NCBI GenBank assembly: GCA_035347995.1
Contig: DAOPQD010000005.1
Coordinates: forward strand, 6,433 to 70,432
DNA: 64,000 nucleotides
Origin: Anaerolineae bacterium
Lineage (GTDB): Bacteria; Chloroflexota; Anaerolineae; B4-G1; SLSP01
Reading direction: 5' to 3'
Below are positions 1 to 61,830 of the stretch, in pieces; position 1 is the stretch's first letter; every line of letters begins with the position of its first letter. Below the pieces are notes generated by a model. The model did no database searches and was not told the origin of the DNA. It saw nothing but the letters and a program-made list of their open reading frames with translations. Both the position numbers and the translations under genes were made by a program.

Positions 1-281
1 AACCCGTGGCCCACCAGGGGAAGCCGCGGCAACCCCATCTGCTGCATGAATAGCGCCACCTGGGCCACGTAACTGTCAATGGAATAACGGGTGCGATTCT
101 TGTCCGAGTCCCCAAAGCCCCAGAAATCGAGCGCGTAGGCGCGATACGACGAGGACAACGCGACCATCGTCGGCACCCAGTAACGCCAGGAACCGAGCCA
201 GCCGTGCAGGAAAAGCAGCGGTTTTCCGCGGCCCAAAGCCTCGTAGTGGGCAAGGCTGCTTTCCAGAATGACGGCACTCAT
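1..281 (-). CDS. alpha/beta-fold hydrolase, N-terminal part only (gene runs off the left edge)
   Basis: Own translation of the minus strand from the ATG at 281-279 gives MSAVILESSLAHYEALGRGKPLLFLHGWLGSWRYWVPTM..YALDFWGFGDS..LVGHG. Clear paralogue of the 9133..9918 product. Absent from the ORF track because it is truncated. Confidence 0.8.
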   Translation of the reverse strand, partial: MSAVILESSLAHYEALGRGKPLLFLHGWLGSWRYWVPTMVALSSSYRAYALDFWGFGDSDKNRTRYSIDSYVAQVALFMQQMGLPRLPLVGHG

Positions 282-7161: not shown

Positions 7162-8415
7162 TTAACGAGGATACAATCTTGGATGTGCGATCTCCGGATT
7201 CGGCAGCTTCCAGTGATCGCTGTCCTCGTAAGTAATATTCCGATCAATGACCCGGCGTTCAGGCGAGGCAAACAGGATCACATCGGACTCAATCATCCGC
7301 GCCGGGAAGATGACCATCCCCGAGCCAATGCGGACATGATGTCCTACCGCCGAACCGATCACCGACAGGCCGGTGTTTTCCAGGCGTCCGCCGAAGTGCG
7401 ATCGAATGGGAATAGTTGGGACCAGGTTGAAATCGGTGAAGGTGTTGCCCGCGCCGATGAACGTCTCCCGTCCCACGACGCACATCTGCAAGCAGGTATT
7501 CTGCGCCACCATGCAATCTTCCATCAGCACCGTTTCGAACAGCGAGGCGCGAAAAGGCAGGAACGTCCCGTCGCCGACGACGCTCAACAGCATCTGACAC
7601 CCGTGAGAGATATTCACATTGTCACCCAACACGCAGTTGGCGATCATGGCTCCCGCCCCAATCGTGACGTTGTTACCGATGATCGTCGGCCCCTGGATGA
7701 TTGCCGTAGGATCAATCTGACAATTCTTACCCACCTGCACCAGGGCAGAGCTCCCCAGCAGTTGCCGGCGCTCGAGCATCGCCTGCCACAACAAGCGCAG
7801 GTTCAGCCCCAAGTCCTTTTCCAGAGAGCGCTCGAAACGCGCCCCAATGGAAAAAATGCCAAACATGACGTTGGCAAAAAGAATGTGGATCCAATGCTCG
7901 ATAGAAAGGAACGCCTTGGTAGGCAGCTGATACACCAAATCGCCGTAGACGTTGGACATGTGAGTCGGCACATGGTAGTATCCCGCTTCTCGCGGCTCGG
8001 TGTGCATCACCAGCGGGCGCACCACCGGCTCGATGCCGTAGGGATAATACCACAAGTCCGCCACATACACGTTGCCCTGACGCCGAATGCCCCGCTGCAA
8101 ATAGATCGCATGTTGCGAAATGGCGGGGTCATCCAGCTCGAAGGCCACCTGACAGGCTTTCCCCAGGCTACGCGCCTGCACGATAAATTCGTCAATGAAG
8201 GGCTGATCGAAATAAAGATTCTCACGGTACACGAGCGTCTCGACGCGGTCATGCCCGATCTCGGAAAGAGAATCCACCTCCAACTCTTCGGTCGTGTAGG
8301 GTACCAGGATGTCCCGTTGATGAAGCCACAACGGCTTACACAGCACGCTCAGATCGCGCGCGGGCTCGTTGAACGGCGGTATTTTGCGTTTTTCGCGCAG
8401 GATGATTTTACGCAC
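7162..8415 (-). CDS. hexapeptide-repeat (left-handed beta-helix) protein with uncharacterised N-terminal half
   Basis: 417 aa. The C-terminal half shows imperfect [LIV]-G-x4 hexads (IIGNNVTIGAGAMIANCVLGDNVNISHGC..). I could not recognise the N-terminal ~210 aa. Confidence 0.65.
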   Translation of the reverse strand: MRKIILREKRKIPPFNEPARDLSVLCKPLWLHQRDILVPYTTEELEVDSLSEIGHDRVETLVYRENLYFDQPFIDEFIVQARSLGKACQVAFELDDPAISQHAIYLQRGIRRQGNVYVADLWYYPYGIEPVVRPLVMHTEPREAGYYHVPTHMSNVYGDLVYQLPTKAFLSIEHWIHILFANVMFGIFSIGARFERSLEKDLGLNLRLLWQAMLERRQLLGSSALVQVGKNCQIDPTAIIQGPTIIGNNVTIGAGAMIANCVLGDNVNISHGCQMLLSVVGDGTFLPFRASLFETVLMEDCMVAQNTCLQMCVVGRETFIGAGNTFTDFNLVPTIPIRSHFGGRLENTGLSVIGSAVGHHVRIGSGMVIFPARMIESDVILFASPERRVIDRNITYEDSDHWKLPNPEIAHPRLYPR

Positions 8416-9136: not shown

Positions 9137-9918
9137 TGCAGATCCAGGAAATCCTGCACAACCTGGTTAAAATGGTCTTTTTCATCCAGCATGGGAAAAT
9201 GCCCGGAGCCTTCAAAGTAATGGATCAGCGCATGTTTGACTCCGGCCTGCAACACGTTGCCCTGATGGGGATCCACGATATTGTCCTTGACCCCATAAAC
9301 GCCCATGACCGGGATGCGCAGCTCTTGTAAGCGAGGGCGCAAATCGGTAAAGCGCAAATCGCGGATGCTATCCGAAAAAGAGTTCATCGTGGTGCTGGAT
9401 AAGTCCTTTTGAAACATCTCGTACCAGGTGCGCCAGTCGCGGGCGTAAAACCGCGAGGCGATCCGCATCCCAAAAGCGAAAGCGCGCGGGAACCGATACA
9501 GCAATCCGGCAATGCGCCGGTTACCGGCCAGTTTGAGCGGCACCGCCAGCCCTGAACCGACCACGGGGGAGCCTACCACCGCCACACGCGAGACCCGCTG
9601 CGGATACATCAACGCCAGGCTCAGCGAGACGGTCCCCCCCATCGAGTGCCCCATCACCGGCGCACGCTCCACACCCAGGCGTTCCATGAACTGATTCACC
9701 ATCTCCACATATTCGCCGACGGTGAATGCCCCGTGTTTGGCCGACTCGCCAAAGCCCCAGAAATCAAGCGCGTAGGTCTTGTACCTGGAAGCCAACAGCT
9801 GCATCGTGGGAAGCCAATAGCTCCACGAACCCAACCAGCAATGCAGCAAGATCACCGGCTTGCCGCGTCCGATGGCTTCATAGTGGACGATTCCACGATC
9901 GGTGACAATGGCTACCAT
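9133..9918 (-). CDS. alpha/beta-fold hydrolase
   Basis: 261 aa. HCWLGSW oxyanion region, nucleophile elbow GHSMGG, C-terminal GSGHFP. Paralogue of the partial gene at 1..281. Confidence 0.85.
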   Translation of the reverse strand: MVAIVTDRGIVHYEAIGRGKPVILLHCWLGSWSYWLPTMQLLASRYKTYALDFWGFGESAKHGAFTVGEYVEMVNQFMERLGVERAPVMGHSMGGTVSLSLALMYPQRVSRVAVVGSPVVGSGLAVPLKLAGNRRIAGLLYRFPRAFAFGMRIASRFYARDWRTWYEMFQKDLSSTTMNSFSDSIRDLRFTDLRPRLQELRIPVMGVYGVKDNIVDPHQGNVLQAGVKHALIHYFEGSGHFPMLDEKDHFNQVVQDFLDLQ

Positions 9919-11480: not shown

Positions 11481-11508
11481 ATTATAACTTGCTTCTAAGA
11501 GTCAGCAA
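11481..11508 (-). promoter_or_regulatory. candidate sigma70-type promoter for the DUF4388-GTPase gene string
   Basis: Minus strand reads TTGCTG-16 nt-TATAAT (perfect -10), about 65 nt upstream of the 11415 start and overlapping the recN 3' end. Confidence 0.3.
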
Positions 11509-13330
11509 ACCCGCCTTTATGCGCGGCCGCCTGCGCCAGAAGTTCTTCCGCGCCCTGCCGCGAGGCCGCGCCCTGCGTCCCCAACATCTGCGCCAGTTCC
11601 TCCAACCGCGACGCCGTTTCCAAACGCCGCACCGTGGTCACCGTGCGCCCTTCCACCACGGCCTTTTGCACGCCGTAATGGGCATCGCCAAACGCGGCCA
11701 GCTGCGGCAGATGGGTGATGCACAACACCTGATGCGCCGGCTGTGCGTCCCCCGTGGCCGCTCCCGTTGGCCGGGTCAGCCGCCAGAGCTTGGCGCCGAC
11801 AATGGCCCCAACGCGCCCGCCGATGCCCTGATCAATCTCGTCGAAAATCAACGTCGGTGTGCGATCGGCGCGCGAAAGCACCGTCTTGAGCGCCAGCATG
11901 AGCCGCGCCGTCTCTCCCCCCGAAGCAATGCGCGCCAGCGGCTTGAGTCCCTCGCCTACATTCGGCGCGATCAGGAATTCCACCTGCTCCACCCCCGTGA
12001 GATCGAAAGCGGCGGACGATACGGGAGTGTCGTCCTGGACCTCGACGTCGTCTGCCGTGACCCACACCTCCGCCGGCAGCGCCGTTTCCAGCGGCAGACC
12101 GGCGGGGTCCGTCTCACAGCGGAACGCGACGCCAAACCGCGTCCCCCCCATGCGCAGATCGGCCAGTTCCCCCTCAACGCCGGCAGCCAGCCGTCGCGCG
12201 GCATCTCGTCGCGCCGCCGACAGCGTCCCACACAGTTCCGCCGCCGCCACACTGCACGCCGCCGCCGCTTCTTCCAGCCCGGCGATGCGCTCGTCGCTGT
12301 GCTCCAGAGCTTCCAGCTCCGCCGCGATTCTGGTCGCGTAGGCCAGAATCTCAGGGATGTCGCCGCCGTATTTGCGCCGCAGGCTGTGAATCAGCGCCAG
12401 GCGCTCCTCGACCTGCTGCAGCCGGCGCGGGTTGAACTCGATGCGGCCCAGGTATTCCCGCAGGGAGCGCGCCAGATCCTCGAGCTGATACACTGCTTCC
12501 AGCCAGGCGCTCTCCTGAGAGCTCAGCGAGGGATCCACCCGCACCAGCGCGGCCATCTCCCGTTGCCCCTGGCCCAACAGATCAAGCACCGCCGGCGACT
12601 CTTCCGCGCCCTCCTCGAGCAGCGTCAGCAACGTCGCCGTCAGCGACGCCAGCTGCTCCGCATTCGCCAGGCGAACGCGCTCTGCCGCAAGCTCGTCCTC
12701 CTCGCCGATTTGCAACGCCGCGGCCGTGAGCTCCTGCAGCTGGAAGCGCAACAGGTCCTGCCGCTGCATCCGGCTGCTTTCGTCCTGGCGCAGCGCTTGC
12801 AACTCCCGCCGTACTGCCTGCAGGCGTCGGACCGCCTCAGCGACGCGCTCCCGCAATTCCCCGAGATCGGCAAAGCGATCCAGCAGCTGCACATGCTCCG
12901 CAACCCGCAGGAGGCTCAGATGCTCGCTCTGCCCGTGAATGTCCACCAACTGCTCGCCAAGCTGGCGCAACAACGCCGCCGCGACCACCGAGCCGTTGAC
13001 ACGCGCGACCGAACGGCCATTGTCGCGGAGCTCGCGACTCAGCCACAGCACATCGGCGGCCTCGCTATCCAGCCCCTCTTGCTCGAGGAGCGGCGCGAGC
13101 CGCGCCTGCTGCCCGGCGTCGAGCTGAAACATCCCTTCGACCAAGGCGCGCGTGGCGCCCTCGCGGATCGCCGTCGCATCGGCGCGCCCGCCCAGCAACA
13201 GCATCACCGCATCAATCACGATGGATTTACCGGCGCCGGTCTCCCCTGTGAGAATATTGAAACCCGGCTCCAGGTTCAAATGCAATTCGTCAATGATGGC
13301 AAAATCTCGAATATGCAGCTCTTTTAACAC
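11495..13330 (-). CDS. recN: DNA repair protein RecN
   Basis: 611 aa. LHIRDFAIIDEL..FNILTGETGAGKSI, coiled-coil middle, C-terminal ASGGETARLMLALK, LIFDEIDQGIGG. GTG start. Confidence 0.95.
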   Translation of the reverse strand: MLKELHIRDFAIIDELHLNLEPGFNILTGETGAGKSIVIDAVMLLLGGRADATAIREGATRALVEGMFQLDAGQQARLAPLLEQEGLDSEAADVLWLSRELRDNGRSVARVNGSVVAAALLRQLGEQLVDIHGQSEHLSLLRVAEHVQLLDRFADLGELRERVAEAVRRLQAVRRELQALRQDESSRMQRQDLLRFQLQELTAAALQIGEEDELAAERVRLANAEQLASLTATLLTLLEEGAEESPAVLDLLGQGQREMAALVRVDPSLSSQESAWLEAVYQLEDLARSLREYLGRIEFNPRRLQQVEERLALIHSLRRKYGGDIPEILAYATRIAAELEALEHSDERIAGLEEAAAACSVAAAELCGTLSAARRDAARRLAAGVEGELADLRMGGTRFGVAFRCETDPAGLPLETALPAEVWVTADDVEVQDDTPVSSAAFDLTGVEQVEFLIAPNVGEGLKPLARIASGGETARLMLALKTVLSRADRTPTLIFDEIDQGIGGRVGAIVGAKLWRLTRPTGAATGDAQPAHQVLCITHLPQLAAFGDAHYGVQKAVVEGRTVTTVRRLETASRLEELAQMLGTQGAASRQGAEELLAQAAAHKGGFADS

Positions 13331-13368: not shown

Positions 13369-13392
13369 TATACTTTCCACTATACTTTCCAC
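13369..13392. repeat. exact tandem duplication of a 12-mer (tatactttccac x2) in the recN upstream region
   Basis: Read directly: 13369-13380 is identical to 13381-13392. Confidence 0.9.
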
Positions 13393-13393
13393 G

Positions 13394-13414
13394 GTTACAA
13401 TCTTTCATTGTAAC
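13394..13414. promoter_or_regulatory. perfect inverted repeat GTTACAAT-N5-ATTGTAAC upstream of recN (candidate operator)
   Basis: Read directly. Centre is about 74 nt upstream of the recN start and abuts the 12-mer tandem. Confidence 0.35.
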
Positions 13415-13458
13415 GATTCAACCACCGACTGAGAAACGGCATAGATTTCAGAGCAATT

Positions 13459-13659
13459 GCTGAAAGAATCAAATTTGTAATACGTACCGCCTTTGCCCCC
13501 TATCCCCTTCCCCCCGCGCGCGCGGGGGGAAGGGGACTTTTTTGCCCCCTTATTTTTTCTCCCCCTCCCCAGTGCGTGCACTGGGGAGGGGCAAAAACTA
13601 CCGGTCACAAAGGTTCGTCCATTGCCGTCTGGATAGTTGACGCCAGGTTGAACAGTTAC
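13459..13659 (+). repeat. modular GC-hairpin repeat, copy A (about 200 nt)
   Basis: Colinear with 47836..48085. Shared blocks: GCTGAA.., CTTTGCCCCCTATCCCC, hairpin CCCCTTCCCCCCGCGCG..GGGGGGAAGGGG + T-run, CCCCTTATTTTTTCTCCCC, a CTCCCC..GGGGAG hairpin, ..ACAAAGGTTC.TCCAT.GCCGTC..GCCAGG.TGAACAGT.AC. Confidence 0.8.
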
Positions 13660-13969
13660 GAGATTTGAAAGATTATGGCCGTGAGCAGTATCACATCATC
13701 GAAAATTTACCAGAGATGCCGGAGACACAGGAAAAATCTGATAAGACGCCGTGTCCTCTGTGACTCCAGGGTTAAAATTATTTGCGCCGCTGAGGCCGTC
13801 TTATTTCCGATACCGTCCAATGAAAAAAAGCATATACCTGATTAGCCGAGAAAGCAAGTCCGCCGACGTTTGGAAGGCTTTGAAACAGGTCTGAGAGCTT
13901 TTGAGAGCTGCTTTATGCTAAGATGTGAGCGTTAAAAGATAGCCAGGACATCGGGAGTATAGTCTGCCT

Positions 13970-15271
13970 GTGGAACACAGTTCCCGTATTGCGGGATTTT
14001 ATAATCTGAGCGGCGCTGAACGTCTGCAGCTGGTTGCCGACTGGGCCGCGCTGAATGCCGAAGAGCAAGCCGTGCTCTCCGGCATTTTGGGCCTGGATGT
14101 GGAACACGGCGCGGCCATGATCGAGAACGTTATCGGGATCTACAGCCTGCCACTCGGCATCGCCGCCAATTTCACGGTGAACGGCCGCGACGTGCTGGTG
14201 CCCATGGTGATCGAGGAGCCGTCGGTCGTCGCGGGGGCCTCGCTGGCTGCCCGACTGGCGCGCGCCGGCGGTGGCTTCAGCGCAAGCACCGCCGAGCCGG
14301 TGATGATCGGACAGCTGCAGGTCATGGGCCTTGACGATCTCGAGGCCGCGCAGGCGCGCCTTCTGGCGGAGAAAGCGGCACTCCTGGCCCTGGCCCATGC
14401 CGTGGACCCTGTCCTCGCGCAGCTGGGCGGCGGCGCGCAAGACCTGGAAGTCCGCCTCCTGCCGGAGACGCCCGCCGGTCCCATGCTCATCGTGCACCTG
14501 CTCTACGACGTGCGCGACGCGATGGGCGCCAATGCTGTCAACACGGCCTGTGAACGCCTCGCGCCGGAAATCGCTCGGCTTACCGGCGGGAGAGTCTTCC
14601 TGCGCATTCTGAGCAACCTGGCGGATCGTCGCCTGGCGCGCGCCGGGGTCGTCATCCCCGAAAGCGCGCTGGCGTTTGATCACTTCAGCGGCGAAACGGT
14701 CGCCCTCGGCATCGAACAGGCCTGGGCCTTCGCTGCCGCCGATCCCTACCGCGCCGCGACGCACAACAAAGGCATCATGAATGGCGTGGATGCGGTCGTG
14801 CTCGCTACGGGGAACGACTGGCGCGCCATCGAAGCGGGGGCCCATGCCTACGCCGCCCGCGAGGGGCGCTACACGAGCCTCAGCACGTGGCAGCGCGATG
14901 GGAAGGGCAACCTCGTCGGCAGCCTGGAGCTGCCCCTGGCGTTGGGCATCGTCGGCGGGGCGACGCGCGTGCATCCGACGGCGCGGGTCGCGCTCAAAAT
15001 CCTGGGGGTGCAGACTGCCCGCGAGCTGGCGGAGATCGTCGCCAGCGTGGGACTGGCGCAGAATCTCGCCGCGCTCCGCGCCCTGGCGACAGAGGGCATC
15101 CAGAAGGGACACATGAGCCTGCACGCCCGGCAGGTCGCCATGGCAGCCGGCGCTACGGGAGAAGCCATCGAGCGCGTCGCCGAGGCCATGATCGCCGAGG
15201 GCGTTATCCGCGTGGATCGCGCCACGGCCTGGTTAGAGCATTTTTACCGCGAGGAGCACGGCGCCGCGTGA
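13970..15271 (+). CDS. mvaA: hydroxymethylglutaryl-CoA reductase, class II
   Basis: 433 aa. MIENVIGIYSLPLGIAANFTVNGRDVLVPMVIEEPSVVAGAS closely matches my recollection of the Pseudomonas mevalonii MvaA block. GTG start. Confidence 0.9.
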   Translation: MEHSSRIAGFYNLSGAERLQLVADWAALNAEEQAVLSGILGLDVEHGAAMIENVIGIYSLPLGIAANFTVNGRDVLVPMVIEEPSVVAGASLAARLARAGGGFSASTAEPVMIGQLQVMGLDDLEAAQARLLAEKAALLALAHAVDPVLAQLGGGAQDLEVRLLPETPAGPMLIVHLLYDVRDAMGANAVNTACERLAPEIARLTGGRVFLRILSNLADRRLARAGVVIPESALAFDHFSGETVALGIEQAWAFAAADPYRAATHNKGIMNGVDAVVLATGNDWRAIEAGAHAYAAREGRYTSLSTWQRDGKGNLVGSLELPLALGIVGGATRVHPTARVALKILGVQTARELAEIVASVGLAQNLAALRALATEGIQKGHMSLHARQVAMAAGATGEAIERVAEAMIAEGVIRVDRATAWLEHFYREEHGAA

Positions 15272-18877: not shown

Positions 18878-18967
18878 CACAAAAATGTGAGTTATGAGCG
18901 GTAAGCGGAGACTGCGACAGTTCTCGACTCACGATTCACCGATCTCTATTTGCTGAGGAGGCTCTGC
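18878..18967 (+). promoter_or_regulatory. structured 5' leader module, copy 1 (GTGAGT arm .. ACTCAC-N3-TCAC arm .. CTCTATTTGCTGAGGAGG SD)
   Basis: 57/74 positions identical by hand alignment, gap-free, to the module at 34348..34421. See findings. Confidence 0.5.
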
Positions 18968-34100: not shown

Positions 34101-34196
34101 ATGTGCTGGCGCACATCATCCAAGGATGAAAAGGTGAGTCGTGAGCAGCGACGGCGACGGCTCACGGGTCGGCCGGGGATGGAATCCCCAGCCTGA
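34101..34196 (+). CDS. leader small ORF 1 (31 codons, MCWRTSSKDEKVSRE..), speculative
   Basis: GGGAGA lies 5 nt upstream. The first 15 codons are paralogous to sORF2, with mostly conservative changes. It runs into leader-module copy 2a. Confidence 0.25.
   Translation: MCWRTSSKDEKVSREQRRRRLTGRPGMESPA
34124..34166 (+). promoter_or_regulatory. leader module, short copy 2a (GGATGAAAAGGTGAGTCGTGAGC..GCTCACG hairpin)
   Basis: The 23-nt 5' box is identical to copy 2b. 7-bp stem cgtgagc/gctcacg with a 13-nt loop. Confidence 0.45.
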
Positions 34197-34314: not shown

Positions 34315-34365
34315 ATGTTCTTCCGGCACACCACCGAGGATGAAAAGGTGAGTCGTGAGCCGTGA
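34315..34365 (+). CDS. leader small ORF 2 (16 codons, MFFRHTTEDEKVSREP), speculative
   Basis: Strong SD GAGGAG 5 nt upstream. The stop codon lies inside the 5' arm of module copy 2b. Confidence 0.3.
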   Translation: MFFRHTTEDEKVSREP

Positions 34366-34427
34366 ACCGCGACTGCAACGACTCTCTACTCACGGCTCAC
34401 GGAGCTCTACTTGCTGAGGAGAAAACG
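34338..34427 (+). promoter_or_regulatory. structured 5' leader module, copy 2b (full length)
   Basis: GTGAGTCGTGAGCCGTGA..TCACGGCTCACG can form a perfect 12-bp stem. It is followed by CTCTACTTGCTGAGGAG and then the ATG. Confidence 0.5.
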
Positions 34428-35449: not shown

Positions 35450-36789
<1,340 letters not shown>

Positions 36790-41896: not shown

Positions 41897-43315
41897 TTAC
41901 TCAACCGCTCCCACAACATCAAGGACATCAAAATAAATTTGAGAAATACGGTCAGAAACCCGCCCAAAAGTGCCCCAGTCAATATCGCCCTGTTCATCCA
42001 GAATGCTGTGCGCGGTCCCCTTCTCAAAAAGGTAAACCGCAACTTGTGCCTGTGAGAGTAAGGCCGCCTCACGTTTCAGGAAGAAATGCTCAGCGGCTTC
42101 AGCAGGTCTTGGATGGCGTGCACCGGCTATCAGGTTGGCCAGGTGATCCACCACATACGGGCTATGGGTAGTGGCCATCACATTGATCCCGGCATTGACC
42201 ATCATGCCGAGGAATTCCACTAACCGTACCTGGGCTTCCGGATGAAGATTCATTTCGGGTTCATCAATCACCACTAAATCGCCTTCAGTGGCCAAATACC
42301 GCAGATAAAATACCAGCGGCGCCAATTCTTTGACCGCTGAAGAGGCTGCATTGATACCCAATGCCCCGCCAGGAATCGAGAAATGGATGCGTCGTTCGAT
42401 ACTTGGCTCCGGAGTGGAAAAGTCAACCTTTCCCCCCAATAAGTCATGTTCCAAAATTTCGGCAAGCCGCAGGTATTCGTTGATCTCAGGCTCTTGGCGC
42501 GCCTGCTGTTCCCGTTGAACGCGCGTGCCAGTCAAAAGAGCGGTCGTCATCCACCCCTGGTAAATAGTAATAGGAAAATTCACCATGGTGCGTTTTAGAT
42601 TCTCTGTCAAATCCGCATAAGATTGCATAGTCGAGCCATACCCAGGCAAGCCCCGCAATAATTGTCCAACTTGTTCTAACTGGGGGAAAAAACCACTACG
42701 TTCTGTGGGAAACGGCCAAACGAAGGCATATAAACAACGGTGTAACGCGGCAAAGATATTTCGGGCCACAAATTCACGGATGATGGTAGGATGTAGATTC
42801 GAGGCTTCGCCTTCGGTGTAAAAGTACAACGTTGTATTGCCAGTTTCTTTTAGCGCGCGCAAAACACCGCCGACCTGGTCTTTGACTTTCAGCTCAGCTA
42901 ATTTGTCCCATTTTTCTGAAGTATAATCTACTGTGACTTGTAGCTGTGTTTGTTTGAAATTGGTAACTGGCGCGCCAATCACGGTTGGGAGCCAATCTTG
43001 AGCAAGTCTGGCAATGCCGTCAAAGTACATCTCCCCATAGCGTTCCGCAAACGTCAATAAATCAACCTGAGAATTTCCTTTTCTTGATAATTCTTCAATA
43101 ATAGTTTCTATAACAGGATAATTCTCTGAAGTTTTTTGTTCTTTGAACGCATTTAAGTATTCTAACCAGCCATAACCGAATAGCCCCAGAAGGTTAGCAA
43201 TGGCATTTGCGGTCCAGGTTTTTCCCGCATTGCTAGGGCCAACAAAAATCGTCAGTGGGCGCAGTGCTATCTCGGCGTTTTCAACCGGGCCTAAATTTCT
43301 AATACTTATTTTCAT
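41897..43315 (-). CDS. ABC-type (AAA_15/AAA_21-like) ATPase with long helical insert
   Basis: 472 aa. Walker A GPSNAGKT, Walker B/D-loop LVVIDEPEMNLHP, H-loop ATTHSP. AT-rich 5' end. Confidence 0.85.
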   Translation of the reverse strand: MKISIRNLGPVENAEIALRPLTIFVGPSNAGKTWTANAIANLLGLFGYGWLEYLNAFKEQKTSENYPVIETIIEELSRKGNSQVDLLTFAERYGEMYFDGIARLAQDWLPTVIGAPVTNFKQTQLQVTVDYTSEKWDKLAELKVKDQVGGVLRALKETGNTTLYFYTEGEASNLHPTIIREFVARNIFAALHRCLYAFVWPFPTERSGFFPQLEQVGQLLRGLPGYGSTMQSYADLTENLKRTMVNFPITIYQGWMTTALLTGTRVQREQQARQEPEINEYLRLAEILEHDLLGGKVDFSTPEPSIERRIHFSIPGGALGINAASSAVKELAPLVFYLRYLATEGDLVVIDEPEMNLHPEAQVRLVEFLGMMVNAGINVMATTHSPYVVDHLANLIAGARHPRPAEAAEHFFLKREAALLSQAQVAVYLFEKGTAHSILDEQGDIDWGTFGRVSDRISQIYFDVLDVVGAVE

Positions 43316-46713: not shown

Positions 46714-47529
46714 CTACTTGCGACCCAGAAAAGCCTGCAACATACTCTGCGCGATCAGGCTACCCGCTGCGGCGCGCGGCGTCACAGGTTTCTGAGTCTG
46801 CCCACCCAACAAGGCTTTGATCAAAGCCTGCTGCATGGCCTGTGAAGAGTCGGCGCCCGTCTGCCGGGCCTGGAAGTAAGCGATGCCGGCAGGGAGCAAC
46901 CGCTCCAGTACCTCCCCCAGGTCAAGGGTGTCGTCCTGAGCGGGAGCCGTTGGCTGCGCCGGCGGGGGAGGCGCCGTCTGTGAGGGCGACACGCCTATCA
47001 GCCCCTTCAACAGATCCATCAAGCTCCCGCCTGACGTAGGTTGCGGCTCAGGAGCTGGCTCCGGCTGCGCCTGCCGGGCACCGGCCATGCCCAACACCAT
47101 ATCGAGCACGCTTTCCGTCGGCTGCCCTTCCTGCGGATTGCCGGTTGCCGGCACAGCTCCCAGAAGCGATTCGATCAACGTCATCACGTCGCCCTGTTCC
47201 AGCGACGTATGTCCACCCAGCTTTTGGGCGGCCTGAGCTAAACCCTGGCTGTAATAAGGGCTGGTTCCACCTCGCCCCTGCACCTGCAACGTCTCAGCGG
47301 CGCGCTGCAGCGCCTCAGCAGGCGGTTTGTCTCCCTGCGAGGACAGCGCCCCGGTGATGATTTGCAGGTTCTGCACCATATTGTCGCCGTGATTGCCATT
47401 GAAACCATCCAGCGCATTGATTTCTTCTCGCTGCGCCGCCACACTGCGAAGTGCGGCTCCAAAAAGGTCGGCAAGAGTTGGGGAAGTTTGTGATTTAACC
47501 GTCTCTGACATAGCGCCTCCATCACTCAT
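46714..47529 (-). CDS. hypothetical protein, weak DAK2/DhaL-like N-terminal motif
   Basis: 271 aa. INALDGFNGNHGDNMVQN resembles the DhaL LD..GDGDHG.NM motif. Pro/Gln-rich linker. Function uncertain. Confidence 0.55.
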   Translation of the reverse strand: MSDGGAMSETVKSQTSPTLADLFGAALRSVAAQREEINALDGFNGNHGDNMVQNLQIITGALSSQGDKPPAEALQRAAETLQVQGRGGTSPYYSQGLAQAAQKLGGHTSLEQGDVMTLIESLLGAVPATGNPQEGQPTESVLDMVLGMAGARQAQPEPAPEPQPTSGGSLMDLLKGLIGVSPSQTAPPPPAQPTAPAQDDTLDLGEVLERLLPAGIAYFQARQTGADSSQAMQQALIKALLGGQTQKPVTPRAAAGSLIAQSMLQAFLGRK

Positions 47530-47835
47530 CGCTCTGAAAGAAGAACAGTGGCGTGCCAGACGTCACCCTGGCGAACTTTGACTGCAGGAGTAACAACGTT
47601 ACCTTCATCTTAGCGGAGTTCATAATAATGTCAATACCCCGGACATCAATTCAAAATGCATTATTTTAACATATAACAAAATATCCCATGGCCCCGACGT
47701 CTCAAGAAGCCCGCCCGGCGCCGGGGCGACTTTCTCCGGGATGTTTCTGCGACCACAGCCGATACACCCAGCAATAGCCTTTGTAGAGGTAACTGTTCAG
47801 CCACTGACTAAAAAACGCAAGATTTCCTGGTGATC

Positions 47836-48085
47836 GCTGAAGATTGAGAATCAACTTTTGCCCCCTATCCCCTGGCCCCTTCCCCCCGCGCGCGGGGGGA
47901 AGGGGAACTTTTTTTGTGGGGTTTTGCAGGCGGGCTACGCCCGCCTGCAAAACCCCTTATTTTTTCTCCCCCTCCCCAACGGCGCAAACGCCGTTGGGGA
48001 GGGGGCAGGGGGTGGGGCAAAAGCTACAGCTTACAAAGGTTCATCCATCGCCGTCGAGCTACCTGGCGCCAGGCTGAACAGTCAC
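47836..48085 (+). repeat. modular GC-hairpin repeat, copy B (about 250 nt, carries one extra hairpin module)
   Basis: Colinear with 13459..13659. The extra perfect 17-bp hairpin at 47918-47956 is absent from copy A. The right end overlaps the stop codon of the pentapeptide gene. Confidence 0.8.
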
Positions 48086-48936
48086 TTGTAGAGAATATCA
48101 GGAGCAAAACAGAACGTCAGCCCTCCCACAAGCGCCGCCGGGACGCCGCCGATGAGTAAGCCTCGCGTTTCGGGGAGTTGAAGCCAGGCCGTCATTGCCA
48201 CCATCAGCCACAGGAAAAGCGCCAGCGAGAATGGCACGATGGCAGCAAAAACGCTGAGCCTGGTGAATAACGGCATGAGCCGGCTTTCCAGAGCCTTGGG
48301 ATTCCGCAAACCGCGCACCAGCAGCCAGATGCGTCCGGAAATCTGGGCGTCGCGTAAATCCGTGCCACCGACCGTCGTGCGATCCCAGATAGCGCCTTCC
48401 AGGTGCGCCCCTTTCAAAACCGTGTGCTGGAATTTCGCCCTCAGGAGAATGGCGCCCTCCAAATCGGCGCCGGTCAAATCGGCATAGGCGAGATCCGCCC
48501 CGCTAAGATCGGCGCGCAGGAAGGTGGCCCCGCGCAAATCCGCGCCAACAAGGTTCGCCCCGGTCAGGGTAGCATGATCCAAGACAGCGCCGGGCAGCTG
48601 CGCCCGTTGCAGCATGGCCGCGCTCAGGTCAGCATGTTCAAGGTTGGCGTGCGCCAGCGCCGCGCTGGTGAGATTCGCCTCACAGAACATCGCGCCGGCA
48701 GCCTGGGCCGTCTCTAAATCCGCGTGGACGAGACTGGCTTTGGTGAAATCGGCCTGGTGCAGATTCAGGTTGCGCAATCTGGCATTATCAAGGCGCGCGT
48801 GGCAGAATCTGGCCCCCGCGAGTTCACACTTCTCGAAAGCCGCCTCTCGCAAATCCGCATACGCAAAATCGCGGAGGGTGAAATCTTCCCCTTTAAATGT
48901 CTGGCCAAAGAACTGCTTATCTGTCGCGCCTGCCAT
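48082..48936 (-). CDS. pentapeptide-repeat protein with C-terminal TM segments
   Basis: 284 aa. Long run of A(D/N)LxG-type pentads (ADLRGATFLRADLSGADLAYADLTGADLEGA). Confidence 0.85.
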   Translation of the reverse strand: MAGATDKQFFGQTFKGEDFTLRDFAYADLREAAFEKCELAGARFCHARLDNARLRNLNLHQADFTKASLVHADLETAQAAGAMFCEANLTSAALAHANLEHADLSAAMLQRAQLPGAVLDHATLTGANLVGADLRGATFLRADLSGADLAYADLTGADLEGAILLRAKFQHTVLKGAHLEGAIWDRTTVGGTDLRDAQISGRIWLLVRGLRNPKALESRLMPLFTRLSVFAAIVPFSLALFLWLMVAMTAWLQLPETRGLLIGGVPAALVGGLTFCFAPDILYK

Positions 48937-59668: not shown

Positions 59669-61078
59669 ATGTATCTCAAAAAAATCCGATTAAAAAACAT
59701 CAAATGTTTCTCGGATATCACCCTGGATTTTTCACCGGAGGGACAGCCGCGGCTTTGGACTGTGATTCTCGGACAGAACGGATTAGGCAAAAGCACCTTG
59801 CTTCAAGCTATTGGCATTGTATTGGCCGGCCCCATAGCTATACGTGAATTGCTCCCTGTAGCCGAAGGATGGGTGAAACGCGACTGCCCCTATGGAGAGA
59901 TTGAAGCCGAGCTTTTGTGGACCGAAGGCGATGCACAAATTCCAAAATGGCCCAAAAAAACGCCCTACACTGTAAAATACGCCATAGTTGGTGAAGATAT
60001 AGACAATGGAAGCCTGCCTTCTAATCTGGCGTCACAATATACTGGCGTTCCAATTGTGACAGAATGGGCGGGGGACGGCATTTCTAAAAAACAGGAAAAT
60101 ATTTCTAAGGATTTGAATCGCCTGAGACAGACAGCCTACGCGGAGGGAAAGACCGGCTGGCTGGGGTGCGGATATGGACCTTTCAGGCGTTTGAGTGGCG
60201 GAGCACAGAATGCAGATAGAATTTTGTATTCTGGTAGAAAATCTGCCCGCTTCATCACCTTATTCAGAGAAGACGCAGCCCTCACAAATGCCACCGAGTG
60301 GCTAATCTCACTCTACAACACCGGGCGAGATGGAAATGAATTAAGCCAGCGGACCTTGAGACAGGTAAAACGAATTTTCGAAGCCGAATTCTTACCTCGC
60401 CCTGCAGAATTGTTAGTAAATGCTCAATCAGCGCTTCTAAGGATTGAGGGACATAATCCGGTTCCTTTTCGAGACTTGAGTGATGGATATCGAAGTATGC
60501 TGGCGATGGGGATTGACCTGCTAAGATGGGTTAGCGTAGCTTTTCCAGAAAAAGAAGATCTCATGGAGGTCGCTGGGGTAGTGGTCATTGATGAACTCGA
60601 TGCCCATGCCCATCCCGCATGGCAACGTGAGATCGGCCATTGGCTACGACGAAAATTTCCAAAATTACAATTTATCATTGCAACCCATAGTCCTTTTTTG
60701 GCACAAGTCGCAGATGAACCCGGCGGGAATATTGTTTTAGTCCAGACCGAAGCAGGGGTACAAAAACGCGATGATGTGGAACTGGTTGAAGCCTGGCGAG
60801 CAGACCAAATTCTTACAGATCTTATGGAATTAAACTCTACTCGCTCACCAGAAGTGGATCGAAAAATCCATAAACTCAATGAATTAAGTCAAAAACGGGA
60901 AGCATTAGAGCAAAAACAGGAAAGGCTCCCCCCAGCACAAGAGGATGAATACCAACAACTCAGACTATGGGTTGAACAACTCCCGCCAGCCATTGAGGAT
61001 CCATGGCAACGGCGGCAGGCAGAAAGGGTTCAACAAGAAATCGCCCAAGCGCTTCCACAACTAGAGGAGCTTGAATGA
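59669..61078 (+). CDS. ptuA: Septu-type PtuA-like ABC/AAA ATPase
   Basis: 469 aa. IRLKNIKCF, Walker A GQNGLGKST, Walker B VVVIDELDAHAHP, H-loop ATHSP. AT-rich. Confidence 0.75.
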   Translation: MYLKKIRLKNIKCFSDITLDFSPEGQPRLWTVILGQNGLGKSTLLQAIGIVLAGPIAIRELLPVAEGWVKRDCPYGEIEAELLWTEGDAQIPKWPKKTPYTVKYAIVGEDIDNGSLPSNLASQYTGVPIVTEWAGDGISKKQENISKDLNRLRQTAYAEGKTGWLGCGYGPFRRLSGGAQNADRILYSGRKSARFITLFREDAALTNATEWLISLYNTGRDGNELSQRTLRQVKRIFEAEFLPRPAELLVNAQSALLRIEGHNPVPFRDLSDGYRSMLAMGIDLLRWVSVAFPEKEDLMEVAGVVVIDELDAHAHPAWQREIGHWLRRKFPKLQFIIATHSPFLAQVADEPGGNIVLVQTEAGVQKRDDVELVEAWRADQILTDLMELNSTRSPEVDRKIHKLNELSQKREALEQKQERLPPAQEDEYQQLRLWVEQLPPAIEDPWQRRQAERVQQEIAQALPQLEELE

Positions 61079-61830
61079 TAAAAGTTCGCCGTGGGCCACA
61101 ACCGGAAGGATTTCATGAACGAGCGATTAGCTGGCAAACTCGCTTTGAGCAAGAGCGAGAAAGTAATCCTTCGCTTACCATCACAAGATTCTGGGACAGA
61201 ATCCGAAATGAAATCCGCGCAGATGCAGAGCACCTATATCATGTTTCGCATGGGAAATGTGCTTTCTGTGAAAGTTACATGGCTGATGTATCTACCCCAC
61301 ACATAGAACACTATCGCCCCAAGAGCAAATTTCCGGAGCTGGCATTCGTTTGGGACAACTGGTTACTGTCATGCCAATGCTGCAATGGCAAAAAATGGGG
61401 ACACTTTCCAATATGTGAAGATCTGCCATGTTTGATAGATCCTGGAAATGAAGATCCAGAAATGCACATAACCTTCGAAGGATACACTCCAATCTCAAAA
61501 ACACCGCGTGGCGAAAAAACGATTGAATTGCTCGGGTTAAGACGAAGTCCCCTGGAAGACGAACGTAGCCGATGGTTAAACTATGTCAGCATATTATTGC
61601 TGAGCTGGTGTAATACTAAAGATTCAATGCTAAAAGACGAAATACGCGAGCTGCTTATCTGGGCCATGCAAGATGAGGCGCCATACGCCGCAATGACACG
61701 CTGCTTCTTGCAAAAGTATGCCCCGCGATTGGCTTCAAAAGCACATCCCCCTGTAACCTGCCCCAGGCCCTTGATGCGTATTCAAGAGCTAGTTGAACAA
61801 TGGAGTCATGAATTCGTTGGACTCGAGTGA
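61075..61830 (+). CDS. ptuB: Septu-type PtuB-like HNH endonuclease
   Basis: 251 aa. CAFCE..HIEHYRPKS..NWLLSCQCCN (HNH with two CxxC knuckles). ATGA overlap with the ATPase gene. Confidence 0.75.
   Translation: MIKVRRGPQPEGFHERAISWQTRFEQERESNPSLTITRFWDRIRNEIRADAEHLYHVSHGKCAFCESYMADVSTPHIEHYRPKSKFPELAFVWDNWLLSCQCCNGKKWGHFPICEDLPCLIDPGNEDPEMHITFEGYTPISKTPRGEKTIELLGLRRSPLEDERSRWLNYVSILLLSWCNTKDSMLKDEIRELLIWAMQDEAPYAAMTRCFLQKYAPRLASKAHPPVTCPRPLMRIQELVEQWSHEFVGLE

What the first reader, a model, noticed from the sequence alone, without database searches (positions are those of the whole stretch)
13459..13659. Two-copy, 200-250-nt modular hairpin element (second copy at 47836-48085) with stem swapping and a presence/absence hairpin module
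Seen in sequence: the copies are colinear and in the same orientation.

Shared modules:
- GCTGAA..AATCAA.
- CTTTGCCCCCTATCCCC.
- Hairpin H1, CCCCTTCCCCCC(GC)nGGGGGGAAGGGG, followed by T6-T7.
- CCCCTTATTTTTTCTCCCC.
- Hairpin H3.
- A 60-nt tail, ..ACAAAGGTTCrTCCATyGCCGTC..GCCAGGyTGAACAGTyAC.

Differences:
- Copy B alone has a perfect 17-bp hairpin, H2 (47918-47956, ggggttttgcaggcggg-ctacg-cccgcctgcaaaacccc), followed by a T-run.
- In H3 the outer CTCCCC/GGGGAG pairs are conserved. The inner stem is entirely different yet still self-complementary (AGTGC..GCACT in copy A, AACGGCG-caaa-CGCCGTT in copy B).

On the plus strand, H1 and H2 look like intrinsic terminators, yet no plus-strand gene lies upstream at either locus. 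Both copies lie upstream of the 5' end of a minus-strand gene (recN; the 46714..47529 ORF). Copy B also abuts the stop codon of the pentapeptide gene.

Inference: a MITE/BIME-like mosaic repeat, a small structured RNA gene family, or an insulator against antisense transcription.
Basis: seen in the sequence. Interest (0 to 1): 0.5.

Follow-up and report, generated by a model that had tools for sequence, protein, structure and literature searches.

The report
Mobile miniature transposon with palindromic hairpins
The two look-alike hairpin-rich stretches are copies of a small non-coding jumping element (a MITE with the end sequences and 8-bp target duplication of IS66-family transposons) that is scattered through the genomes of uncultured sludge-digester Anaerolineae; it is an ordinary kind of thing, though a well-documented new family.

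Summary
Copy B is exactly 47789-48085 (297 bp). It has 14-bp terminal inverted repeats (GTAACTGTTCAGCC / GGCTGAACAGTCAC) and a perfect 8-bp target-site duplication (TTGTAGAG). It landed inside the 3' end of the pentapeptide gene. A syntenic ortholog has the uninterrupted gene.

Copy A (13410-13659) lies within a 323-bp block (13369-13691). That block is missing from a strain whose RecN is 97% identical.

One metagenome scan returned at least 115 stretches. These cover at least 61 distinct flank contexts, next to 65 unrelated left-hand genes. Eight insertions carry perfect 8-bp duplications, and one 297/297 identical copy sits at another locus.

The repeats and the duplication length match IS66-family (ISBst12-group) elements. 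No transposase was found.

Hairpins H1-H3 are 97-99% paired across 79 copies, with many two-sided changes. Their loops occur as reverse-complement pairs (H2: TAC 33, GTA 33). G·T mismatches are no commoner than A·C. This points to DNA-level palindrome maintenance, not an RNA gene.

H1 and H2 plus their T-runs look like one-way terminators. In tandem gene contexts they face against the genes (29 to 0-1).

Verdict: a new MITE family, a known kind of element. Any insulator role is untested.

The parts
47789..48085 (+). Copy B: complete 297-bp MITE, from terminal repeat to terminal repeat.
   Evidence: A 297/297 identical copy lies at a different locus, L027. The element is absent from the syntenic ortholog L134.
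47781..47788 (.). Left copy of the 8-bp target-site duplication TTGTAGAG of copy B.
   Evidence: The ortholog carries a single copy of the site.
48086..48093 (.). Right copy of the 8-bp target-site duplication TTGTAGAG of copy B.
47789..47802 (+). Left terminal inverted repeat of copy B, GTAACTGTTCAGCC.
   Evidence: It matches the ISDge4 repeat GTAACTGCTCAGCA at 12 of 14 positions.
48072..48085 (+). Right terminal inverted repeat of copy B, GGCTGAACAGTCAC. It contains the TGA stop (48082-48084, minus strand) now used by the pentapeptide gene.
47876..47905 (+). Hairpin H1 of copy B (13 pairs), followed by T7. Terminator-like on the plus strand only.
   Evidence: Family-wide pairing is 95.6-98.0%.
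47918..47956 (+). Hairpin H2 of copy B (18 pairs, loop TAC), followed by TTATTTTTT. Terminator-like on the plus strand only.
   Evidence: Paired in 99.1% of cells. The loop is TAC in 33 copies and GTA in 33.
47968..48005 (+). Hairpin H3 of copy B (17 pairs, loop CAAA).
   Evidence: 98.7% paired, and 10 of 17 pairs show two-sided changes.
47702..47780 (-). Orphaned 3' remnant of the pentapeptide ORF (GYCWVYRLWSQKHPGESRPGAGRAS*), cut off by the insertion.
   Evidence: It aligns with the C-terminus of the intact ortholog P0001.
48082..48936 (-). Pentapeptide-repeat gene, truncated by copy B to 284 aa. The reconstructed length is 309 aa and the ortholog is 315 aa.
13410..13659 (+). Copy A: 250-bp inner element from terminal repeat to terminal repeat. 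It lacks H2.
13369..13691 (+). The whole 323-bp block holding copy A. It is present in the window and absent from a strain with 97%-identical RecN. It consists of copy A plus outer imperfect inverted-repeat arms (13369-13409 and 13660-13691). It begins 38 nt upstream of the recN GTG start.
   Evidence: alignment A5; L137/L138, L140, L141. The outer arms recur at an unrelated locus, L041/L065.
13410..13423 (+). Left terminal inverted repeat of copy A, GTAACGATTCAACC.
13646..13659 (+). Right terminal inverted repeat of copy A, GGTTGAACAGTTAC.
13503..13536 (+). Hairpin H1 of copy A (15 pairs), followed by a T-run. Terminator-like on the plus strand only.
13562..13591 (+). Hairpin H3 of copy A (CCCCTCCCCAGTGC-GT-GCACTGGGGAGGGG). 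Its inner stem differs from that of copy B.

Best explanation
The two copies belong to a family of miniature inverted-repeat transposable elements (MITEs) in uncultured Anaerolineae from anaerobic digesters.

The mobile unit (shown):
- It is about 300 bp, non-coding and globally palindromic.
- It ends in 14-bp terminal inverted repeats that begin with GTAAC.
- It inserts with an 8-bp target-site duplication.

How it moves (inferred): a DDE transposase of the IS66 family, ISBst12 group, acts in trans. The terminal repeats are 12 of 14 identical to those of ISDge4, and the duplication length is the same. That transposase was not found.

The central hairpins:
- The centre carries three G+C-rich perfect palindromes, H1 to H3. 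They are cargo of the element, not independent repeats.
- Their integrity is kept up at the DNA level (inferred). The likely process is template switching or arm-to-arm correction within the palindrome. This also flips the loops and produces the 'stem swapping' and compensatory changes.
- Loss of H2 in copy A is a lineage-specific deletion.

Likely effect on transcription (inferred):
- On the element's plus strand, H1 and H2 with their T-runs should act as one-way intrinsic terminators.
- Surviving copies between co-oriented genes almost always point these terminators against the genes. Transcription therefore reads through the element, while transcripts running the other way would be stopped.
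- The most economical reading is selection against the polar orientation, plus spread as part of oriented leader composites. A dedicated function is not needed.

Effects in this window (shown):
- Copy B truncated a pentapeptide-repeat gene by 25 codons.
- The block holding copy A landed 38 nt upstream of the recN start codon.
For: Terminal inverted repeats are visible in both copies.

Target-site duplications:
- Eight independent loci carry perfect 8-bp duplications with unrelated sequences: ATGCAAGG, ACGCAAAC, CTTATCTT, GTCAAATC, CTTCTACG, TGCGTGGC, CGCTGGGT, TTGTAGAG.
- The match distribution is bimodal.

Empty site for copy B:
- Removing the element and one duplication restores an ORF whose extra 25 residues align with the syntenic 315-aa ortholog. 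Compare PDILYK|GYCWVYRLWSQKHPGE with PDILFKGYCWFNNLWSRKHPGE.
- The neighbouring gene order is the same.
- The DNA alignment shows the 297+8 bp missing from the ortholog.

Empty site for copy A: a strain with 97%-identical RecN lacks 13369-13691, and so do relatives at 80% and 77%.

Recent activity: a 297/297 identical copy sits in a different context.

Abundance:
- These include 80 unique sequences and at least 61 flank pairs.
- The left-hand genes fall into 65 unrelated clusters.
- One 150-kb contig holds five or more copies.
- Contigs break inside the element.

IS66 link: the family has inverted repeats starting GTAAGCG and 8-bp direct repeats (PMC11946415). ISDge4 has repeats GTGACTACTCAGCA and GTAACTGCTCAGCA with an 8-bp direct repeat (PMC12898284).

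Palindromes:
- 97-99% Watson-Crick pairing against about 84% median copy identity.
- 30 pairs show two-sided changes against 11.5 in shuffles, 0 of 500 shuffles reaching that. Slid controls pair at 45-53%.
- Loops occur as reverse-complement pairs, and G·T mismatches number 20 against 30 A·C.
- Template switching is a published cause of arm homogenisation and spacer inversion (PMC8604942, PMC8794818).
- H2 is found only inside the element, 114 of 118 occurrences.

Terminators and orientation:
- Terminator-like sites occur only on the plus strand.
- The T-run after H1 is invariant across copies.
- Tandem gene contexts: 29 antisense, 0 sense. One sense case occurs in a 49% G+C organism.
Against: - No IS66-type transposase, and no full-length element with these terminal repeats, was found in the window or in about 1 Mb of fetched loci. 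The genome collection could not be scanned a second time.
- Copy A has no 8-bp duplication at its inner repeats. It appears to have moved as a larger composite whose own ends show no clear duplication. The simple model does not cover how that copy moved.
- Most copies (class 1) have imperfect flanks (CTCACAGG / CGCACATT). They sit inside other repeated modules, so they may have spread as composites by an unknown route.
- About a quarter of copies have the left terminal repeat replaced.
- Among the eight insertions with clean duplications, orientation in tandem contexts is only 4 to 1. That is not significant alone.
- Gene calls for the orientation statistics come from my own simple codon model.
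- Terminator activity is inferred from sequence pattern only.
Confidence: 0.8

Rival explanations
1. Exapted antisense insulator. The element is kept upstream of genes because its one-way terminators stop divergent or antisense transcripts that start near the downstream promoter. This would protect the upstream gene from antisense transcription. It can hold together with a MITE origin.
For: - Terminator-like hairpins occur on the plus strand only.
- The T-run after H1 is invariant.
- In tandem contexts the element is antisense to both genes in 29 of 29 or 30 loci.
- It is nearly absent from convergent regions: 1 of 50 loci with both neighbours called.
- Stems are kept 97-99% paired.
Against: - Purging of the polar orientation would give the same pattern. 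So would spread of already-oriented leader composites.
- Clean de novo insertions show only 4 to 1.
- Palindrome integrity and loop flips are explained by DNA-level template switching without selection.
- There are no transcript data.
Confidence: 0.2
2. A family of small structured RNA genes or cis-regulatory RNAs, transcribed from the plus strand and ending at the H1 or H2 terminators.
For: - Very stable predicted folds, z = -12.1 and -6.5.
- Covariation in three helices.
- Terminator-like 3' ends.
Against: - No Rfam match at gathering threshold, and only noise at E-values up to 10.
- No plus-strand promoter-like site upstream of H1 in copy B.
- Loops are freely replaced by their reverse complement, and G·T mismatches are not enriched over A·C. 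Neither is expected under strand-specific RNA selection.
- Terminal repeats, target duplications and empty sites show a transposon.
- Whole modules can be lost: H2 in copy A, H3 in L044, and all hairpins in L107:3887-4007.
Confidence: 0.05
3. A REP/BIME-type mosaic of palindromic units. These would be spread by a RAYT (IS200/IS605-like) enzyme or by recombination, not by a DDE transposase.
For: - Modular, mosaic arrangement with other repeats (W, Z and X modules) in intergenic regions.
- Palindromic units.
- Replacement of the left end in about 25% of copies.
Against: - REP and REPIN elements have no terminal inverted repeats of this type and make no 8-bp target duplications. Here eight perfect duplications flank the unit bounded by the terminal repeats.
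- The hairpins never occur outside the element.
- The terminal repeats match an IS66-family element.
Confidence: 0.04
4. Part of a mobile promoter or 5'-leader cassette. The MITE, together with the W, Z and X modules, would form portable upstream regions that supply a leader and a Shine-Dalgarno sequence, and perhaps a promoter, to unrelated genes.
For: - In most loci the left flank reads gene start, then SD, then CTCCTTCGAAAAT..., then a conserved ~180-nt module, then the element, in front of dozens of unrelated genes.
- Minus-strand promoter-like hexamers span the left end of copy A.
- Putative mobile promoters are a described phenomenon (PMC3488235).
Against: - Neither window copy is attached to these modules.
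- Copy B lies upstream of an independent promoter-like site, TTGACA-16-TAAGAT at 47634-47607.
- No conserved outward promoter is evident in the left arm of the family consensus (my own reading of the sequence).
Confidence: 0.1

Closest known systems
IS66 family, ISBst12 group (for example ISDge4 of Deinococcus geothermalis)
   Same: - The terminal inverted repeats start with GTAAC or GTGAC and are 12 of 14 identical to those of ISDge4.
- The target-site duplication is 8 bp.
   Different: - The element has no transposase gene and is about 300 bp instead of about 1.5-2.7 kb.
- Its interior is made of palindromic hairpins.
- The cognate autonomous element was not identified.
Bacterial MITEs with functional cargo, such as Neisseria Correia elements, enterobacterial ERIC/IRU and MITEAba12 (comparison from general knowledge and PMC6382973)
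   Same: - Short and non-coding.
- Terminal inverted repeats and target duplications.
- High copy number.
- Located near genes, with possible effects on transcription.
- Presence/absence polymorphism between strains.
   Different: - Different terminal repeats and duplication length.
- Three long perfect G+C-rich palindromes with T-runs in one orientation.
- Frequent embedding in other repeated leader modules.
- Host is uncultured Anaerolineae.
REP/BIME and REPIN elements
   Same: Intergenic palindromic repeats arranged as mosaics. Their orientation is non-random with respect to transcription.
   Different: - REPs lack these terminal repeats and the 8-bp duplications.
- REPs are mobilised by RAYT enzymes.
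- REPs typically sit at 3' ends of genes and in convergent regions. This family sits upstream of gene starts.
Palindromes maintained by template switching (PMC8794818, PMC8604942)
   Same: Arm homogenisation gives apparent compensatory substitutions, and the loop or spacer inverts to its reverse complement.
   Different: Here the process is seen across about 80 paralogous copies of a bacterial MITE. The published cases compare orthologous loci.

Membership tests
MITE (non-autonomous DDE-transposon derivative) | Terminal inverted repeats at both ends | tested here: met
   The repeats are GTAACTGTTCAGCC / GGCTGAACAGT(C/T)AC in both window copies and in most family members. Column pairing is 74%, a figure that includes the roughly 25% of copies with a replaced left end.
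MITE (non-autonomous DDE-transposon derivative) | Target-site duplication of fixed length flanking the element | tested here: met
   Eight independent loci carry perfect 8-bp duplications of unrelated sequence, copy B among them. Copy A and the class-1 copies do not show one.
MITE (non-autonomous DDE-transposon derivative) | Empty sites (presence/absence) in related genomes | tested here: met
   For copy B, the syntenic ortholog L134 has an intact gene. For copy A, the strain L137/L138 with 97%-identical RecN lacks 13369-13691.
MITE (non-autonomous DDE-transposon derivative) | Small, non-coding and multi-copy | tested here: met
   Copies are 249-304 bp and differ by 1-2 nt indels in T-runs and loops, so no reading frame is kept. 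There are at least 61 distinct contexts.
MITE (non-autonomous DDE-transposon derivative) | Cognate autonomous IS with the same terminal repeats in the same lineage | tested here: inconclusive
   None was found in the window or in about 1 Mb of fetched loci.
IS66 family (ISBst12 group) derivative | Inverted repeats beginning GTAA... | tested here: met
   The repeats begin GTAAC or GTGAC. The family definition is in PMC11946415. They are 12 of 14 identical to the ISDge4 repeats (PMC12898284).
IS66 family (ISBst12 group) derivative | 8-bp direct repeats on insertion | tested here: met
   compared.
IS66 family (ISBst12 group) derivative | Mobilisation by a DDE_Tnp_IS66 transposase | not testable with these tools
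   No such gene was seen. This needs complete genomes or an experiment.
REP/BIME | Roughly 35-nt REP units without terminal repeats or duplications, associated with a RAYT enzyme | tested here: not met
   The element has terminal repeats and 8-bp duplications. Its hairpins occur only inside the element. RAYT genes were not searched for.
Small RNA gene / Rfam family | Match to a curated covariance model, or a promoter plus terminator delimiting a transcript | tested here: not met
   There are no matches at gathering threshold. Both regions give only noise at E-values up to 10. No plus-strand promoter-like site lies upstream of H1 in copy B.
Rho-independent terminator | G+C-rich stem-loop followed directly by a T-run on the transcribed strand | tested here: met
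   H1 (both copies) and H2 (copy B) match on the plus strand only. The T-run is invariant across copies. Activity was not tested.

The most novel reading that the evidence does not exclude
This Anaerolineae lineage may run a system of portable upstream cassettes, made of the MITE plus the W, Z and X leader modules. In this reading the cassettes place a ready-made leader and Shine-Dalgarno sequence in front of dozens of unrelated genes. The MITE's one-way terminators would serve as built-in insulators against divergent or antisense transcription. They would then be functional parts rather than junk.
Probability: 0.12. Interest if true: 0.6.

Novelty: new member of a known kind. Interest (0 to 1): 0.3.

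Why it matters
- It explains two odd intergenic regions in the window as recent transposon insertions. One shortened a pentapeptide-repeat protein by 25 residues. The other sits 38 nt upstream of the recN start codon.
- It documents an abundant, apparently still active MITE family in an uncultured, industrially relevant group, the digester Anaerolineae. The family breaks metagenome assemblies in that group.
- With about 80 paralogous copies, it is a clean natural dataset for DNA-level palindrome maintenance: loop flip-flop and apparent compensatory changes. This is a caution against reading covariation in repeated hairpins as proof of an RNA gene.
- The strong orientation pattern gives a testable case for how one-way terminators carried by mobile DNA are filtered or recruited.

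Tried and rejected
- Rfam, on the whole window at gathering threshold and on both regions at E-values up to 10, gave nothing meaningful.
- The genome-collection scan with the 22-nt H2/H3 linker found only 3 hits. The pattern was too strict and the MAGs are fragmented.
- I looked for an autonomous IS in three ways: pairs of terminal-repeat-like sites 1-3 kb apart in all loci, ORFs in L009, and Pfam on the low-G+C and low-scoring window genes. No transposase turned up. Those genes are AAA ATPases, an HNH protein, FemAB, hydrolases and others.
- L041/L065 first looked like orthologs of the recN locus. Alignment showed unrelated flanks, so they are independent copies of the same composite.
- Covariation between the two terminal repeats (CAACC/GGTTG in copy A, CAGCC/GGCTG in copy B) looked like a closing RNA stem. 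It does not hold across the family; L052 is one exception. I rejected it.
- An outward promoter in the left arm is not convincing in the family consensus. Only copy A has junction-spanning hexamers.
- Hairpins as independently dispersed repeats: rejected.
- A literature search for MITEs in Anaerolineae found nothing.

Full report
**1. Observation**

Both stretches are present and colinear on the plus strand. The 23-nt tail motif ACAAAGGTTCRTCCATYGCCGTC occurs exactly twice in the window, against 0.00 expected. The pattern scan finds H1 in both copies and H2 in copy B as plus-strand stem-loops followed by T-runs. Predicted folds are far more stable than shuffles, z = -12.1 for B and -6.5 for A. 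Rfam has no match.

Both copies begin with GTAAC(T/G)(G/A)TTCA(G/A)CC and end with its reverse complement. These are 14-bp terminal inverted repeats.

**2. Host and gene context**

- RecN, the pentapeptide protein and their neighbours occur identically in several sludge-digester MAGs and contigs labelled Anaerolineae.
- Copy A lies in a 639-bp divergent region between recN (11495-13330, minus) and an HMG-CoA reductase gene (13970-15271, plus). The minus-strand ORF 13913-15124 is a shadow ORF.
- Copy B lies between a pentapeptide-repeat gene (48082-48936, minus) and a Dak2-like gene (46714-47529, minus).

**3. Copy B is a transposon insertion**

The element is 47789-48085 (297 bp). It is flanked by TTGTAGAG at 47781-47788 and at 48086-48093.

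The pentapeptide gene takes its TGA from inside the right terminal repeat. Deleting the element and one duplication restores the reading frame...PDILYK|GYCWVYRLWSQKHPGESRPGAGRAS*.

A 315-aa ortholog (63% identity) aligns straight across the junction as PDILFKGYCWFNNLWSRKHPGENTPDS. It sits in the same gene order: RNase Y, RecX, 2-hydroxyacid dehydrogenase, pentapeptide, Dak2, LysM, MutS. The DNA alignment shows the 297+8 bp absent there.

All nine contigs that encode the exact 284-aa protein carry the insertion. Five of them end inside it, as expected for a multi-copy repeat.

**4. Copy A is also an insertion, as part of a larger block**

A strain whose RecN is 97% identical (L137/L138, GCA_035384195.1) has the same flanks but lacks window 13369-13691 (323 bp). 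Relatives at 80% and 77% lack it too (alignment A5).

The block is copy A (13410-13659) plus two outer arms (13369-13409 and 13660-13691). The arms form a further imperfect inverted repeat. The same composite occurs at an unrelated locus, L041/L065, and there it retains H2. The missing H2 of copy A is therefore a lineage-specific deletion.

The block starts 38 nt upstream of the recN GTG. I found no 8-bp duplication for copy A, so how it moved is not settled.

**5. The family**

- They yielded 88 full copies, 80 unique sequences and at least 61 distinct flank pairs.
- The left-hand genes fall into 65 unrelated homology clusters.
- One 150-kb contig carries five or more copies.
- Median pairwise identity is 84%. 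L027 nevertheless holds a 297/297 identical copy of copy B in a different context, which implies recent movement.
- Eight independent loci have perfect 8-bp duplications of unrelated sequence. The remaining copies cluster at 4-6 of 8 matches.

Variants include:
- a 121-bp 'core' with both terminal repeats and no hairpins (L107:3887-4007);
- a copy with H2 and H3 only;
- a different cargo with the same terminal repeat in another Anaerolineae MAG (L009);
- a 92%-identical copy in a 49% G+C organism (L048).

**6. Which transposon?**

The IS66 family is defined by inverted repeats starting GTAAGCG and by 8-bp direct repeats (PMC11946415). ISDge4, of the ISBst12 group, has repeats GTGACTACTCAGCA and GTAACTGCTCAGCA with an 8-bp direct repeat (PMC12898284). 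These are 12 of 14 identical to the ends found here.

No transposase gene was found in the window or in the fetched loci. The link is therefore an inference from the ends and the duplication length.

**7. The hairpins**

Across 79 aligned copies (A3), Watson-Crick pairing is 97.4% for H1, 99.1% for H2 and 97.9% for H3.

Formal counting on the alignment gives:
- 92.9% of cells paired, a figure that includes the terminal repeats;
- 30 pairs with two-sided changes, against 11.5 in shuffles (0 of 500 shuffles reach 30);
- 45-53% pairing when the partner columns are slid.

Two features argue that this reflects DNA-level palindrome dynamics rather than selection on an RNA.

- Loops occur as exact reverse-complement pairs at comparable frequencies:

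| Hairpin | Loop pairs (counts) |
|---|---|
| H1 | CTG 14 / CAG 11 |
| H2 | TAC 33 / GTA 33 |
| H3 | TTTG 12 / CAAA 5; CCTG 10 / CAGG 9; TCTG 9 / CAGA 4; TATG 9 / CATA 5 |

- Mismatches are G·T in 20 cases and A·C in 30, so there is no wobble excess on either strand.

Template switching between inverted-repeat arms is known to homogenise the arms and to invert the spacer (PMC8604942, PMC8794818). H2 is found only inside the element, 114 of 118 occurrences.

**8. Orientation and possible function**

I called genes with a simple codon model trained on database gene calls and checked it on the window.

- The gene on the element's left is on the opposite strand, with its start facing the element, in 63 of 65 gene clusters.
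- Only tandem contexts say anything about orientation. These give 29 antisense and 0 sense, plus one sense case (L048) read by hand.
- Convergent regions hold 1 of the 50 loci where both neighbours were called.

In this orientation the hairpin-plus-T-run terminators point against the flanking genes. Gene transcription can therefore pass through, and opposite-strand transcripts would stop.

Most of these copies are embedded in larger repeated modules. On the left is a ~180-nt leader that runs up to the Shine-Dalgarno sequence of the neighbouring gene. On the right is a module carrying SD, ATG and a 13-codon mini-ORF closed by the terminal repeat's TAA. The bias may therefore be inherited from composites that spread already oriented.

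Among the eight clean insertions the tandem-context ratio is 4 to 1.

I regard purging of the polar orientation as the most likely cause. An insulator role is possible but unproven.

For copy B, a good promoter-like site (TTGACA-16-TAAGAT, 47634-47607, minus strand) lies between the element and the Dak2-like gene. The element is therefore not needed as a promoter at that locus.

**9. Verdict**

This is a real and well-supported finding of an ordinary kind: a new MITE family with IS66/ISBst12-type ends in uncultured Anaerolineae. The features of some interest are:
- the clean evidence for loop flip-flop and palindrome correction across paralogous copies;
- the truncation of a gene;
- the insertion next to the recN start codon;
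- the strong orientation pattern.

The RNA-gene reading is not supported.

Noticed in passing
window 18882-18960, 34120-34151, 34343-34421, 35460-35519: A second repeat family. Each unit is an ~80-nt hairpin-forming module (GTGAGYCGTGAGCC...GGCTCACG...) ending in CTCTATTT..GAGGAG, immediately upstream of a plus-strand gene start (genes called at 18950, 34362 and 35530). The same kind of module flanks most copies of the MITE in other loci.
   Followed up: partly
L010-L124, flanks of most copies (for example L012:14000-14852, L027, L035, L072): The MITE is usually embedded in a mosaic. On the left is a conserved ~180-nt module (CTCCTTCGAAAATGGCCCCGAATGAACACGAATTTCACGAAT...GGCTCACAGG) that runs up to the Shine-Dalgarno sequence of dozens of unrelated genes. 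On the right is a ~60-nt module whose reverse strand reads GAAGGAGACGCC-ATG plus 13 codons (MCWRTSSKDENVR), closed by the TAA of the terminal repeat. These look like portable 5' leaders.
   Followed up: partly
L137:1760-1900 compared with window about 13800: The strain that lacks copy A carries a different insertion in the same recN/HMG-CoA reductase spacer. It is a Z/X-type leader module (TCCTCGGAAAATAGAGAGCAGTGAGCC...), inserted after GGTATATGCTTT and absent from the window. These modules are therefore also polymorphic between close strains.
   Followed up: no
alignment A3 (79 copies), hairpin loops: The loops of all three hairpins exist as reverse-complement pairs at near-equal frequency (H2: TAC 33, GTA 33). 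This is a clear case of loop flip-flop in bacterial palindromes.
   Followed up: yes
window 13369-13392: A tandem duplication, TATACTTTCCAC twice, at the outer left end of the copy A block. On the minus strand it creates two -10-like hexamers (TATAGT, TATAAC) about 40-55 nt upstream of the recN start.
   Followed up: no
window 59669-61830: A low-G+C island (about 49% against 61% for the window) with two overlapping genes: a 469-aa AAA_15/AAA_21 ATPase and a 251-aa HNH-domain protein. This pairing is reminiscent of two-gene anti-phage systems such as Septu. It was not tested against PADLOC.
   Followed up: partly
window 41897-43315: Another gene with lower G+C and atypical codon usage. It encodes a 472-aa AAA_15/AAA_21 ATPase.
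   Followed up: partly
L048:5430-5729 (also L082 and L123): A copy 92% identical to copy B, with the perfect duplication GTCAAATC. It sits in a contig of only 49% G+C, between two plus-strand genes, which is the one sense-oriented case. This suggests transfer of the element between quite different organisms.
   Followed up: partly
L107:3887-4007 and L009:6042-6152, 7572-7682: L107 holds a 121-bp minimal element with both terminal repeats and a left arm like that of copy A, but no hairpins. L009 holds unrelated cargo behind the same terminal repeat (GTAACTATTCAGCC) in another Anaerolineae MAG. The terminal repeats define a wider superfamily.
   Followed up: no
window 100-249 and 9737-9886: A 150-nt direct repeat at 72% identity, inside two minus-strand coding regions. 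These are probably paralogous gene segments.
   Followed up: no
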